This document shows positions 16,704 through 19,679 of a stretch of DNA of 64,000 bases, one piece after another; positions within the stretch are counted from its first letter, which is position 1, and every line of letters starts with the position of its first letter. Both the position numbers and the translations under genes were made by a program. The stretch covers positions 880,099 through 944,098 of the forward strand of contig OX437086.1 of the NCBI GenBank assembly GCA_949299565.1, written 5' to 3'. The DNA comes from an uncultured Bacillota bacterium. GTDB taxonomy: Bacteria > Bacillota_I > Bacilli_A > RFN20 > CAG-826. The notes under the pieces are model-generated. The model made no database searches and had not been told where the DNA came from. It worked only from the letters and a program-made list of their open reading frames with translations.

Positions 16704-19679
16704 ATGAAAAAAATCTTGCCACTCATGGCCTTATCGGCCGTTATGATTCTAGCTTCATGTGGCGGAAGCGGTTCCTCCGACTCGTCAAGTAGCGGAATCG
16801 ATTCTTCTTATGACGGTTCAGAATCATCCTCATCCTCAAGTTCTGAAAGTTCCTCTTCAGATTCATCATCCTCCGATTCATCTAGCGAACTCCCCCCCCT
16901 GGAGATGACTGGAAGCGGTACGCGCGAAGATCCTTATATTCTCTACACGCGTGCGCATCTTGAAGAAGTCCGTCCGTTGATCACTGCTAACGAGACAACA
17001 ACTCCGATTTACGTCCAACTCGGCGCTGATATCGATTTATCAAGCGAACAATGGGCACCGATTGGTGATTTGGAAAATCCGGCAAATGTTGTCTTCAATG
17101 GAGGCGGCCATACGATTTCAGGACTATTGATTGAAGAAACTCCTGATGATGTAGAAGATGCTCCGCTCGGACTTTTCGGAGCCGTCACTGGCGAAATTTA
17201 TGATTTGACGTTAGATGGCGAAATCGATGTGATTTCCTTATCTGATAGCACTTATGCCGGACTTTTAGCCGGTTATGCCAGCAATCTCTATATCACCGAT
17301 GTTCATACATCAGGTTCGGTTCGCTTACGGGCTACAGGCCAGTATCAATCCCTTTATTCCGGCGGCATCGTCGGCTTCTATGGCGCTGTTTCTTCGTATT
17401 ACGTCGATATTACATCCTCTTCATCTTCTGCAGACGTAACAGCCAGTGCTCAATATATCGGTTATGCTGGCGGCATTGCCGGCGCTCTCTCCACTTCCTT
17501 CTCATCTCCCGGCATTTCAGCCGTTAACTCTTGCGTTTATGAAGACGGCATCATCGAAGGCAGCACCGCGGCTGGTGGAATTATCGCTAGCACGCTTTAT
17601 TATGCTTCGGTTGTGAACTCCGTTGTCACCGCTGAACGGATCACCGTCACCGATGATAATTTGGGAATTGCTTCGGCTGGCGGTATCGTTGGCGACACAT
17701 ATTACGAAAACGCCTTCCTTTATAATATTGTTGAAACCGAAAGCATCACAGCCGCTGATGGCATTTCATCGCCCAATATCGGAACAGTCGCTGGCTATGT
17801 CTATGAAAGTGGTCACGCTGACGGATCCGATATCGGTGGCGCAAGCATTTACGGCAATCTCGGGCCAACTGATAGTTATGATGATGCTTCTTTAACTGCT
17901 ATCGGCTTTGCTTTGGCCTTTGATTTGCATGGAAACGAGGTGCCAACTCTTAAAGAAACTCCAACTTTAGGCGGAGAAGGCACTGCTACTCTCCACGCTA
18001 ATGATGGAAGCGAAAGAAGTGAAGATTTTGCGATTGAATATTCAATCTTTAATCAAGGCGTCATCACTAATAACTTCACCTCAGAAAGCGGTTTATTTGT
18101 CGACATCAGCTATGATCAAAATAGCTACGTTCAATACAAATGGTTCGCGCCTCTTAATGCCGACATCGATCTTTATGACGTTTGGTATGATCCGAGTCCG
18201 ATTGTCGGTTGGCATTTAGGTCCTAGTTACTATAATCCGGCACTTTATATTGAAGAGGACGGAACCATCACGATGATGCAATATGACGGATGCTCAGAAG
18301 TTGGTACTTATTGGAGCGATGGTCAATATTTGGTTTTCCATGGCCTCGGTGATTATGACGGTGTCGTCGCTACAATCGAAGATGATAATTCTTTAGTCTT
18401 CGCGGATACCAATGACTCAAGCTATATCTACGACTATAGCAAAGCCCCTTCATATTACGGATATTATCGGAACGATGAAGGCGACTACATTCTCTTCTTG
18501 GATGATGATGGAACCGGCTACGTTAATGACGGCATGAGCAAACTCCCCGTCACTTATCGACTCGATGGCGAAGATCTCTACATCACCGTCTCCTACTATA
18601 ACGAAGCCCTTGTCACTTTCGATGGCGATACCATCAGTTTCACGCTCGATGATTATGACTATCAATATGAATACACTCTGACCGCCTTTAATGGCGTTCC
18701 AACTTTCAGCGGTTCATATCTAGGCCGCTTCTCCGGCGATGAATGGGATATAGAACTATTGGCGAACGGAAACGTCAATCTCTATCGCCCCAATGAAACT
18801 GGTCTTTATTCAACCGGCGGATATCGCGCGTATGGCAACACCATAGAACTAAATGTTTGGTCGTTAACTGGTAATTATGATTATGATCCAACAAGCGGCC
18901 TCCTCATCAAAGAAGATGGTTCAGAAGCCTTCAGTCAAAACGGCGATTTTGTAGCTTCTTATCACACTGCTGATCAATCCGTTTACGTCTATCGCTTCGC
19001 GGATGGCGATTATCTCATCGTCAACGGCAACATCGTGCGCAATCCGACAATCAGCGGCGACTTCTCAGAAGGCTCCACCGTCATCATTGAAGGAAACGAA
19101 TACGTTATCGAAGGCGAAATTCTCGTCGTTCAAGAGGAAGTTGATTATGCTCCGGTTGTCGGCACTTACGACATGTACATCAACGAGACCGATAACGGAA
19201 TTGACCTTGTCTTAAATTTAGACGGAACCGGCACTTATGATGGCGCAGCCATCACTTATGAATTTGATGGTGAGAATCTAACTTTCGACTATAACTATCT
19301 AACCTTCACTTTAACTTTCGATAGCGAAGCGCATACCTTAACCGGCATCTTCGATGATGGCGATTATCAAACCAATTGCACCTTCATCTTACAAGAAGAA
19401 GAGGTCACGACTCCTTCGCTTCTCGGCAGTTGGAGCGGAAATTTCATGAGCAACACTTGGACTTTCACGATCAATAACGACGGCACTCTCGTTCTAACTT
19501 TGCCGGCCGGTGATTTTAACGGAACGTGGGAAGGAGACCTCGAAAGCGAAATTTCCTTCACTTCCGAAGCTTTCGGCGGTCTTGAAGGAACAATCACGCT
19601 TGAAGGCGAGAATGACGCTTCAATGATTGCTGATGACTATGACTATAATAGTTATAACGTTGATTTAACCCGCAACTAA
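16704..19679 (+). CDS. Large surface lipoprotein with poly-Ser linker and GLUG-motif repeats
   Basis: Lipobox ILASCGG, Ser/Asp-rich low-complexity tract, repeated GG(I/L)(V/A)G motifs (GGIVG, AGGIAG, AGGIIA, AGGIVG), strong RBS GAAGGAG upstream. Confidence 0.8.
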   Translation: MKKILPLMALSAVMILASCGGSGSSDSSSSGIDSSYDGSESSSSSSSESSSSDSSSSDSSSELPPLEMTGSGTREDPYILYTRAHLEEVRPLITANETTTPIYVQLGADIDLSSEQWAPIGDLENPANVVFNGGGHTISGLLIEETPDDVEDAPLGLFGAVTGEIYDLTLDGEIDVISLSDSTYAGLLAGYASNLYITDVHTSGSVRLRATGQYQSLYSGGIVGFYGAVSSYYVDITSSSSSADVTASAQYIGYAGGIAGALSTSFSSPGISAVNSCVYEDGIIEGSTAAGGIIASTLYYASVVNSVVTAERITVTDDNLGIASAGGIVGDTYYENAFLYNIVETESITAADGISSPNIGTVAGYVYESGHADGSDIGGASIYGNLGPTDSYDDASLTAIGFALAFDLHGNEVPTLKETPTLGGEGTATLHANDGSERSEDFAIEYSIFNQGVITNNFTSESGLFVDISYDQNSYVQYKWFAPLNADIDLYDVWYDPSPIVGWHLGPSYYNPALYIEEDGTITMMQYDGCSEVGTYWSDGQYLVFHGLGDYDGVVATIEDDNSLVFADTNDSSYIYDYSKAPSYYGYYRNDEGDYILFLDDDGTGYVNDGMSKLPVTYRLDGEDLYITVSYYNEALVTFDGDTISFTLDDYDYQYEYTLTAFNGVPTFSGSYLGRFSGDEWDIELLANGNVNLYRPNETGLYSTGGYRAYGNTIELNVWSLTGNYDYDPTSGLLIKEDGSEAFSQNGDFVASYHTADQSVYVYRFADGDYLIVNGNIVRNPTISGDFSEGSTVIIEGNEYVIEGEILVVQEEVDYAPVVGTYDMYINETDNGIDLVLNLDGTGTYDGAAITYEFDGENLTFDYNYLTFTLTFDSEAHTLTGIFDDGDYQTNCTFILQEEEVTTPSLLGSWSGNFMSNTWTFTINNDGTLVLTLPAGDFNGTWEGDLESEISFTSEAFGGLEGTITLEGENDASMIADDYDYNSYNVDLTRN
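16892..16899 (+). repeat. Poly(C)8 homopolymer tract inside the lipoprotein ORF (candidate slipped-strand phase-variation site)
   Basis: Eight consecutive C in codons CTC CCC CCC CTG (L-P-P-L) about 63 codons into the ORF; rare in this AT-rich sequence. Confidence 0.6.

What the first reader, a model, noticed from the sequence alone, without database searches (positions are those of the whole stretch)
16885..16905. Poly(C)8 tract inside the GLUG lipoprotein ORF: possible phase-variation switch
Eight consecutive C (16892-16899) encode L-P-P-L just after the Ser-rich linker of a 991-aa surface lipoprotein. I found only one other G/C run of this length in the window. Tracts of this length are classic slipped-strand mispairing sites that switch surface proteins on and off; a one-base change would frameshift the ORF about 63 codons in.
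Basis: partly seen in the sequence, partly recalled or inferred. Interest (0 to 1): 0.6.

Follow-up and report, generated by a model that had tools for sequence, protein, structure and literature searches.

The report
Poly-C frameshift switch candidate in lipoprotein gene
An eight-C run at the start of a surface lipoprotein gene is real, built from rare codons and differs in length between related strains, sometimes breaking the reading frame, so it is a credible but unproven example of the well-known slipped-strand on/off switch.

Summary
It lies between a disordered Ser-rich linker and the first folded domain. It is unlikely by chance: 0.21 C8/G8 runs are expected per window and 2 are seen, with no run of 7. 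It uses the rarest Pro and Leu codons (P about 9e-4 given L-P-P-L).

Public assemblies of the same species carry other alleles. C8 is in frame (window lineage). C9+AC is in frame (996 aa, 20 contigs). C9 is out of frame (86-aa stub, with an intact body at dN/dS 0.10). A 924-aa gene call starting at the ATG just after the tract implies a fourth, out-of-frame allele.

The C9 assembly also has homopolymer frameshifts in two neighbouring genes, so that allele may be a sequencing error. No read-level heterogeneity could be tested.

The other C8 (20058-20065) lies in a promoter-like block upstream of a 91-aa ORF and is C7 in two strains.

Verdict: a plausible contingency locus, a new member of a known kind, not proven. 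The "GLUG" label is only weakly supported.

The parts
16654..16681 (+). Promoter-like site (TTGAAA-16-GAAAAT) upstream of the lipoprotein gene
   Evidence: A consensus scan only. The upstream region is identical in the window and L010, with a single substitution in L011.
16691..16696 (+). Shine-Dalgarno AAGGAG, 7 nt before the ATG at 16704
   Evidence: Read directly.
16704..19679 (+). 991-aa surface lipoprotein ORF (in-frame, 'ON' allele in this window)
   Evidence: ORF list. The exact protein is on record in NCBI, ENA and Logan assemblies. No Pfam or NCBIfam family passes threshold. The AF2 model is all-beta from about aa 67 onward.
16704..16760 (+). Lipoprotein signal peptide with lipobox L-A-S-C (Cys19 at 16758-16760)
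   Evidence: Translation, judged against the lipobox consensus [LVI][ASTVI][GAS]C (established knowledge). Conserved in homologues P0002-P0009.
16761..16886 (+). Ser-rich disordered linker (aa 20-61)
   Evidence: pLDDT is about 25 for aa 1-61. L011 has a 12-nt in-frame expansion at 16836.
16892..16899 (+). Poly(C)8 tract: the candidate slipped-strand switch
   Evidence: The alleles are C8 (window, L001, L002), C9 (L010) and C9+AC (L011).
16905..16907 (+). ATG of Met68, the start that gene callers fall back on when the tract is out of frame (924-aa call P0123)
   Evidence: P0123 equals residues 73-996 of P0121 exactly.
16906..16908 (+). TGA reached from the signal-peptide frame when the tract is C7 or C10 (67-68-aa stub)
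   Evidence: In-silico tract edits.
16961..16963 (+). TGA reached from the signal-peptide frame when the tract is C6, C9 or C12 (85-87-aa stub)
   Evidence: In-silico edits. Observed in L010, which gives an 86-aa product.
19700..19724 (+). Bidirectional intrinsic-terminator-like hairpin shared with the convergent 91-aa ORF
20058..20065 (-). Second homopolymer (G8 on the minus strand), in a promoter-like block 42 nt upstream of the 91-aa ORF 19740..20015(-). It is not part of the lipoprotein switch, but it shows that G/C tracts vary in length in this species.
   Evidence: Sequence. It is C8 in the window, L002, L011 and L012, and C7 in L004 and L010. The conserved block is TTGCAT-(TTCA G7/8 TCT)-TATACT.

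Best explanation
The C8 run is a hypermutable homopolymer that works as a translational on/off (contingency) switch for a surface-anchored lipoprotein.

Proposed mechanism. During replication the nascent or template strand slips within the run and adds or removes a C. With C8 (or C5, C11) the signal-peptide frame reads through to the 991-aa protein, which is exported, lipidated at Cys19 and displayed on a Ser-rich tether. With plus or minus 1 or 2 bases the exported frame ends after 67-87 residues. The body of the protein then has no signal peptide, so the cell is antigenically and functionally OFF. A second slip restores the frame.

The tract sits in a disordered linker just before the first folded residue. 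In-frame length changes therefore only add or remove a proline and are harmless.

Shown: the tract, its improbability, its rare-codon make-up, the consequences of each length, and inter-strain length variation that includes out-of-frame alleles over an otherwise intact, selectively constrained gene.

Inferred: that the changes are frequent and reversible within a population, and that selection maintains the tract for this purpose.
For: (1) The tract is real and unexpected. 2 C8 runs are seen against 0.21 expected, with no run of 7.

(2) It is built from the rarest synonymous codons, with P about 9e-4 given L-P-P-L.

(3) It lies 189 nt into a 2976-nt ORF, between the disordered linker (pLDDT about 25) and the first folded residues (pLDDT above 90 from about aa 70). 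The gene encodes a lipoprotein within a cluster of surface proteins carrying InlB B-repeat, BspA-LRR and Big_2 domains.

(4) The tract has at least three alleles at DNA level in the species (96.6-100% identity). C8 is in frame, C9+AC is in frame (996-aa P0121, on 20 contigs), and C9 is out of frame, giving an 86-aa stub. A fourth, out-of-frame state is implied by P0123. That 924-aa call starts at the ATG just after the tract and equals P0121 residues 73-996.

(5) In the out-of-frame L010 allele the RBS, signal peptide and linker are intact. The 2775-nt body has no stop or indel and shows dN/dS = 0.10 against the window. It is not a decaying pseudogene.

(6) G/C tracts are indel hot spots here. 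C8 tracts changed in 4 of 5 strain comparisons, against 5 of 98 for A/T runs of 6 or more (Fisher p = 1.4e-4; p = 0.005 with L010 left out).

(7) Homologues at 42-52% identity have IPEPVEDV, EEPVKDL or IVEEEM at this position. No G/C run of 6 or more occurs anywhere in the three homologue loci fetched (L014, L015, L016). The tract is a lineage-specific acquisition, not a protein requirement.

(8) Precedent: hypermutable 5' homopolymers that inactivate surface-protein genes are documented, including in the Firmicute L. monocytogenes (inlA; PMC2831843). N-terminal enrichment of repeats linked to phase variation is also reported (PMC3315296).
Against: No read-level or single-population data exist, so reversibility and rate are untested.

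The only out-of-frame allele seen as DNA (L010) comes from an assembly with homopolymer frameshifts in two neighbouring genes: GrpB/acetyltransferase (T6 to T8) and the Na+/H+ exchanger (A6 to A5). This pattern is expected from homopolymer sequencing error.

The DNA behind P0123 could not be fetched.

About 24 contigs carry in-frame alleles, against 2 calls that are or imply out of frame. The main lineage has an interrupted tract (C9-A-C), which could equally be read as a fixed in-frame indel.

C8 is at the low end of tract lengths that switch fast in known systems (own knowledge). The mismatch-repair status of this organism is unknown, and the window holds no mutS or mutL.

By count alone, 2 runs in 64 kb is only modestly significant (4 of 100 shuffles).
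Confidence: 0.5

Rival explanations
1. The tract is an ordinary linker sequence, not a working switch. It is a Pro-Pro hinge that happens to be written with C-rich codons. The C8 versus C9+AC difference is a fixed in-frame indel between lineages. The rare out-of-frame calls (L010, P0123) are homopolymer sequencing or assembly errors.
For: L010 also carries frameshifting homopolymer indels in two other genes within 11 kb. In-frame alleles dominate: P0001 on 3 contigs, P0124 on 1 and P0121 on 20, against P0122 on 1 and P0123 on 1. A 1-2 Mb genome would be expected to hold a few C8 runs by chance at 0.2 per 64 kb. A/T-run indels between lineages also occur.
Against: The rare-codon make-up (9e-4) and the missing C7 class argue against chance. 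Both C8 runs in the window vary between lineages, including in L004, whose genes are all intact. With L010 excluded, G/C tracts still change far more often than A/T runs (p = 0.005). The L010 contig is reported from 2 samples. P0123 is an independent out-of-frame call in another lineage.
Confidence: 0.33
2. The tract is a mutational hot spot used for one-way gene inactivation. Some strains lose the lipoprotein for good through a frameshift at the tract, for example under immune or phage pressure, and reversion is not biologically relevant.
For: Out-of-frame alleles occur in separate lineages. The L. monocytogenes inlA poly(A) tract is mostly seen as truncation alleles in nature (PMC2831843). 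L010 also has other broken genes, which could reflect reductive evolution.
Against: The body of the L010 gene shows no secondary damage over 2775 nt and has dN/dS 0.10. The frameshift is therefore either very recent or regularly reverted. Inactivation without reversal does not explain why a rare-codon tract is kept in all three lineages.
Confidence: 0.12
3. Slippage happens at the RNA or ribosome level rather than in DNA. RNA polymerase stuttering or +1/-1 ribosomal frameshifting on the C run would give a mixture of full-length and truncated products from one DNA sequence.
For: Long homopolymers can cause transcriptional slippage (own knowledge).
Against: The length differences are seen in DNA assemblies. 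Productive transcriptional slippage is mainly known for A/T runs of 9 or more (own knowledge). The window allele is already in frame and needs no recoding.
Confidence: 0.03

Closest known systems
Poly-G/C contingency loci of Campylobacter jejuni, Helicobacter pylori, Neisseria spp. and Bordetella pertussis (intragenic homopolymers in surface-structure genes; PMC1891110 for B. pertussis; the rest from own knowledge)
   Same: A G/C homopolymer of 8 or more stands out in a lower-GC genome. It lies in the 5' part of an ORF for a surface component, so that a change of plus or minus 1 truncates the product. Strains differ in tract length and show both ON and OFF alleles.
   Different: Those are Gram-negative pathogens with measured switching rates, and often with dozens of tracts per genome. 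Here the host is an uncultured organism known only from metagenome assemblies, whose nearest named relatives are Clostridia. Only two tracts were seen in 64 kb, C8-C9 is at the short end, and no rate was measured.
Listeria monocytogenes inlA 5' poly(A) tract (Orsi et al. 2010, PMC2831843)
   Same: A Firmicute surface protein gene carries a 5' homopolymer. Its frameshifts give a very short product, and it mutates about 1000-fold faster than point mutation. The tract acts as a reversible or efficient inactivation device.
   Different: That tract is poly(A), not poly(C). InlA is LPXTG-anchored, not a lipoprotein. The rate was measured experimentally there and not here.
Mycoplasma variable surface lipoproteins switched by homopolymers (for example M. 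hominis Vaa poly(A) in the 5' coding region; M. hyorhinis Vlp poly(A) in the promoter spacer), from own knowledge
   Same: A lipoprotein with a signal peptide and lipobox, followed by a low-complexity or repetitive region, carries a homopolymer near the 5' end that decides ON or OFF. The second tract here resembles the promoter-spacer type.
   Different: Those tracts are poly(A) in very AT-rich Mollicutes, and the genes belong to multigene families. This protein is a 991-aa all-beta protein with no sequence relation to them, and no paralogue family was found in the window.
GLUG-motif (PF07581) surface proteins of Firmicutes
   Same: Distant homologues (26-36% identity over the N-terminal part) carry PF07581. 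The N-terminal domain is predicted as a regular beta structure.
   Different: This protein does not reach the Pfam threshold (13.8 against 20.5 bits). Those relatives are mostly 1000-1700 aa, many with FMN-binding or SLH domains, and none is known to be phase variable.

Membership tests
Simple-sequence-repeat contingency locus (translational phase variation by slipped-strand mispairing) | Homopolymer or short repeat of mutable length (about 7-8 nt or more for G/C) inside the ORF | tested here: met
   C8 at 16892-16899 inside ORF 16704..19679.
Simple-sequence-repeat contingency locus (translational phase variation by slipped-strand mispairing) | A length change that is not a multiple of 3 abolishes the product, and the tract lies near the 5' end | tested here: met
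   Products of 67-87 aa for out-of-frame lengths. The tract lies at codons 63-66 of 991.
Simple-sequence-repeat contingency locus (translational phase variation by slipped-strand mispairing) | The tract is more frequent than chance or codon usage predicts | tested here: met
   0.21 expected against 2 seen. P about 9e-4 from codon usage. This rests on a single window, and the genome-wide census was not possible.
Simple-sequence-repeat contingency locus (translational phase variation by slipped-strand mispairing) | Tract length differs among strains, with both in-frame and out-of-frame alleles over an otherwise intact gene | tested here: inconclusive
   C8, C9+AC and C9 are seen as DNA, and P0123 implies a fourth allele. 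The body is intact with dN/dS 0.10. The C9 assembly also shows other homopolymer frameshifts, so error is not excluded.
Simple-sequence-repeat contingency locus (translational phase variation by slipped-strand mispairing) | Reversible switching at high frequency (about 1e-5 per cell per generation or more) within a clonal population | not testable with these tools
   No reads or cultures were available. The organism is known only from metagenome assemblies.
Bacterial lipoprotein (Lgt/Lsp pathway substrate) | N-terminal signal peptide ending in a lipobox [LVI][ASTVI][GAS]C | tested here: met
   MKKILPLMALSAVMILAS-C19, conserved as LLASCGG in homologues. Lipidation itself is not testable.
GLUG motif family (Pfam PF07581) | A score at or above the Pfam gathering threshold (20.5 bits) | tested here: not met
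   13.8 bits, E=0.08, on aa 68-466, and no hit at E<=0.01 on the full protein. Distant homologues do carry PF07581, so a divergent relationship is likely but membership is not shown.
Promoter-spacer homopolymer switch (transcriptional phase variation), for the second tract at 20058-20065 | The tract lies between functional -35 and -10 hexamers, so that its length sets the spacer | tested here: inconclusive
   TTGCAT-15 nt-TATACT with G8 in the spacer, followed by AAGGAGAT and the ATG. The spacer of 14-15 nt is shorter than the 16-18 nt scanned for, and the scan did not list the site. The length varies between G7 and G8 among strains. No transcription data exist.

The most novel reading that the evidence does not exclude
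This uncultured small-genome bacterium (its LysR protein's nearest named relatives are Clostridia) runs a small 'phasome' of poly-C/G tracts. One is a translational switch in a large surface lipoprotein. A second is a promoter-spacer tract in front of a neighbouring small membrane-protein gene. Together they would be an SSR-based phase-variation system in a commensal lineage where, to my knowledge, phase variation has so far been described mainly through DNA inversion.
Probability: 0.3. Interest if true: 0.55.

Novelty: new member of a known kind. Interest (0 to 1): 0.4.

Why it matters
If the tract really switches, it marks this 991-aa lipoprotein as a surface molecule under fluctuating selection from host immunity, phage or niche. 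It would also show that homopolymer contingency loci operate in uncultured gut-type Firmicutes known only from metagenomes.

There is a practical consequence for genome annotation. In public assemblies this one gene is already called as 991-, 996-, 973- and 924-aa proteins only because of the tract. Such loci will look like pseudogenes or mis-started genes unless the tract is recognised.

The mechanism itself is textbook, so the gain is a new example and a testable marker, not a new principle.

Tried and rejected
I reached the P0122 contig through its LysR neighbour P0126. I reached the P0121 lineage through the 264-aa protein shared with the window. P0123's DNA stayed out of reach, and 16 similar places of the main lineage were collapsed by the tool, so their tract lengths are unknown.
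- Flank-anchored DNA patterns with a variable gap found nothing in genome contigs or metagenome contigs. Protein-based locus searches there also found no relative. The species is absent from those collections, and its name could not be obtained. No cluster member carries a source name.
- Searching with the N-terminal 65 aa for truncated OFF products gave no hit, probably because of low-complexity bias. The 924-aa sub-ORF of the window is not on record.
- Exact look-ups of the 91-aa, LysR, Na+/H+ exchanger and 551-aa proteins returned only near-identical contigs.
- No Pfam or NCBIfam family passed threshold for the lipoprotein. A Foldseek search of the AF2 model against the PDB gave only generic all-beta matches with TM about 0.08 and is uninformative.
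- No paper mentions the run or assembly accessions.
- Tandem-repeat search of the window showed nothing relevant.
- Considered and set aside: that the tract is required by the protein, because homologues lack it; and that the L010 allele is an old pseudogene, because its body is intact with dN/dS 0.10.
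Full report
**Observation.** The sequence reads ...TCT AGC GAA CTC CCC CCC CTG GAG ATG ACT..., with eight C at 16892-16899. The run lies inside the 991-aa ORF 16704..19679 on the + strand, in codons L63-P64-P65-L66. The protein starts MKKILPLMALSAVMILAS-C19, a signal peptide with a lipobox. Residues 20-61 are almost entirely Ser, Asp, Glu and Gly. So is the statement that only one other G/C run of this length exists in the window: C8 at 20058-20065.

**Is it more than chance?** The window is 39.5% G+C. Dinucleotide-preserving shuffles give on average 0.21 C8/G8 matches against 2 observed, and 4 of 100 shuffles reach two. The Poisson P is 0.019.

The length spectrum is odd: one C6, no C7, two C8, and no G run of 6 or more. 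With P(C|C)=0.20, only 4% of runs that reach 6 should reach 8.

At the codon level the tract is written with the rarest choices. CCC is 11.9% of Pro codons, and CTC and CTG are 12.7% and 3.5% of Leu codons. L-P-P-L would form a C8 with probability about 9e-4. This is the only CCC-CCC pair among nine Pro-Pro dipeptides in the window's ORFs. The tract is therefore unlikely to be a by-product of the protein sequence.

Homologues at 42-52% identity confirm this. They have IPEPVEDV, EEPVKDL or IVEEEM at the same place. No G/C run of 6 or more occurs anywhere in the three homologue loci fetched.

**What the gene is.** No Pfam or NCBIfam family passes threshold. The GLUG motif PF07581 reaches only 13.8 bits against a cut-off of 20.5, though many distant homologues carry it. 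'GLUG lipoprotein' is therefore a plausible but unproven label.

An AlphaFold2 model from 12 homologues (mean pLDDT 71) shows residues 1-61 as disordered. A confident all-beta domain starts at about residue 67-70, directly after the tract. A Foldseek search against the PDB gave only generic beta matches.

The gene sits in a run of surface-protein genes: an InlB-B-repeat protein, a BspA-type LRR protein and a Big_2 lipoprotein. The organism could not be named, because it is absent from the genome and JGI collections. The nearest named relatives of its LysR protein are Clostridia.

**Consequences of length change.** Editing the tract in silico gives full-length protein for C5, C8 and C11. It gives 67-68-aa stubs (...ELPP(P)WR*) for C7 and C10, and 85-87-aa stubs for C6, C9 and C12. 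In every out-of-frame state the body of the protein is cut off from its signal peptide.

**Variation in related sequences.** The 90%-identity cluster of this protein has five members:
- 991 aa: the window's protein (3 contigs) and a near-identical variant (1 contig).
- 996 aa, with ELPPPLE (P0121, 20 contigs).
- 973 aa, whose N-terminus is the Ser linker read in another frame (P0122).
- 924 aa, starting at Met68 just after the tract (P0123).

I could fetch DNA for three of the lineages.
- L001 and L002 (100% and 99.9% identical to the window) have C8.
- L011 (Logan SRR25052251, about 98.4-99.4% identical) has C9 followed by AC, that is CTC CCC CCC CCA CTG, in frame.
- L010 (Logan SRR14620898, 96.6% identical) has C9 followed directly by TGGAG. 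Its signal-peptide frame ends after 86 residues. Its promoter region, RBS, signal peptide and linker are intact. The 2775-nt body downstream has no indel or stop, and dN/dS is 0.10 against the window. This is not an old pseudogene.

P0123 is exactly residues 73-996 of P0121. This is what a gene caller returns when the frame upstream of the tract is the one with a TAG just before it, that is a tract length equal to 1 mod 3. Its DNA could not be retrieved.

**The caveat.** Listing all indels between strains shows that L010 also has T6 to T8 in the GrpB/acetyltransferase gene and A6 to A5 in the Na+/H+ exchanger gene. Both genes are split in its gene calls. Three homopolymer frameshifts in about 11 kb is what a platform with homopolymer errors produces, although real gene decay would look similar. 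The C9 allele of L010 is therefore weaker evidence than it first seems.

Against a pure error explanation:
- The contig is reported from two samples.
- P0123 is an independent out-of-frame call in another lineage.
- The second C8 is C7 in L004, whose genes are all intact.
- With L010 left out, C8 tracts changed in 2 of 3 comparisons against 2 of 79 for A/T runs of 6 or more (p=0.005). With L010 included the figures are 4 of 5 against 5 of 98 (p=1.4e-4).

**The second tract.** On the minus strand, 20058-20065 is G8. It lies in ...AAAAAACC TTGCAT TTCA GGGGGGGG TCT TATACT TAGGG...AAGGAGAT AAAAGTTA ATG, in front of the 91-aa ORF 19740..20015. This block is conserved whether the upstream neighbour is the Na+/H+ exchanger gene (window, L004) or an extra hexapeptide-acetyltransferase gene (L010, L011, L012). 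That is as expected for the 91-aa gene's own promoter.

The tract would set the -35/-10 spacer to 15 nt (G8) or 14 nt (G7). Both are shorter than the optimum, so whether it is a working switch is open. It does show that G/C homopolymers in this species change length between closely related strains.

**Mechanism and rivals.** The best-supported reading (confidence 0.5) is the classical one. Replication slippage in the C run toggles the reading frame between an exported, lipid-anchored full-length protein and a short stub. The tract is placed in a disordered hinge, so that in-frame changes are harmless.

The main rival (0.33) is that the tract is an ordinary hinge. Under this reading the in-frame difference between lineages is a fixed indel and the out-of-frame calls are errors.

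A third reading (0.12) is one-way inactivation at a mutational hot spot. RNA-level or ribosomal slippage (0.03) is not supported by anything seen here.

**Comparison with known systems.** In how it works, this is the same kind of device as three known groups. The first is the poly-G/C contingency loci of Campylobacter, Helicobacter, Neisseria and Bordetella (PMC1891110; own knowledge). The second is the 5' poly(A) tract of L. monocytogenes inlA (PMC2831843). The third is the homopolymer-switched lipoproteins of mycoplasmas (own knowledge). N-terminal enrichment of repeats as a signature of phase variation is documented (PMC3315296).

On membership, four structural and comparative criteria were tested. 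Three are met, and strain polymorphism is inconclusive because of the L010 caveat. The defining criterion, reversible high-frequency switching within a population, cannot be tested with these tools.

**Verdict.** This is a credible candidate contingency locus in an uncultured Firmicute, a new member of a known kind, of moderate interest (0.4). Read-level tract-length counts in the named runs would settle it.

Noticed in passing
window 20058-20065 (minus strand G8), upstream of ORF 19740..20015(-): This second C8/G8 run lies between TTGCAT and TATACT hexamers, 42 nt upstream of a 91-aa ORF. That ORF has a hydrophobic C-terminal stretch and no Pfam match. The tract is G8 in the window, L002, L011 and L012, and G7 in L004 and L010. 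The promoter-like block is conserved regardless of the upstream gene. It may be a promoter-spacer phase-variation tract, but the spacer is only 14-15 nt.
   Followed up: partly
window 20084-20220, compared with L010 5867-6430 and L011 16083-16646: L010, L011 and L012 carry a 187-aa hexapeptide-repeat acetyltransferase gene between the Na+/H+ exchanger and the 91-aa gene. The window and L004 lack it. Homology breaks at 20083/20221, about 18 nt from the second poly-C tract.
   Followed up: partly
window about 26250-34445; L004 7350-11792; L013 1-9670; L011: A hypervariable defence island lies next to the conserved 264-aa ORF (25453..26247). The window has a Schlafen-like helicase plus AAA_21/RloB. 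L013 has MmeI-type methyltransferase, SNF2 and DEAD helicases, and comes from the same ENA sample as the window-identical L001. L004 has DndB, a D12 methyltransferase and T5orf172. L011 lacks window 31342-34444. The 264-aa protein itself is identical on 38 contigs while all its neighbours vary.
   Followed up: no
L010 (Logan SRR14620898), at window positions 14662 and 21351: Homopolymer indels (T6 to T8, A6 to A5) split the GrpB/acetyltransferase and Na+/H+ exchanger genes in this assembly. This is either sequencing error at homopolymers or real gene decay, and it affects how far the C9 allele can be trusted.
   Followed up: partly
window 16836 (Ser-rich linker of the lipoprotein): L011 has a 12-nt in-frame expansion of the TCATCC repeat, adding four Ser. 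The linker itself changes length between strains.
   Followed up: no
L016 525-532 (homologue P0009, 26% G+C genome): An A8 run lies between TTGCAT and TAAGAT (17-nt spacer), 38 nt upstream of the homologous lipoprotein gene. It may be a promoter-spacer homopolymer, but A8 runs are common in so AT-rich a genome.
   Followed up: no
L014/L015 (61% G+C), L016 (26% G+C) and the window (39% G+C): Homologues of this lipoprotein at 42-52% identity sit in genomes of very different base composition and in unrelated neighbourhoods. In L014 the gene lies next to a JetABC/Wadjet-like system. This suggests a widely spread or horizontally moved surface-protein family with no Pfam model.
   Followed up: no
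window 14871..16526 (-): The divergently transcribed 551-aa lipoprotein has Big_2/Big-like domains and a sub-threshold ribonuclease (barnase-type) match at its C-terminus (E=0.009).
   Followed up: no
window 9191..10657 and 10347..12161 (+): Two long ORFs with no Pfam match overlap by about 310 nt in different frames. The longest-ORF version of the second is not in the protein collection, so its real start is probably further downstream.
   Followed up: no
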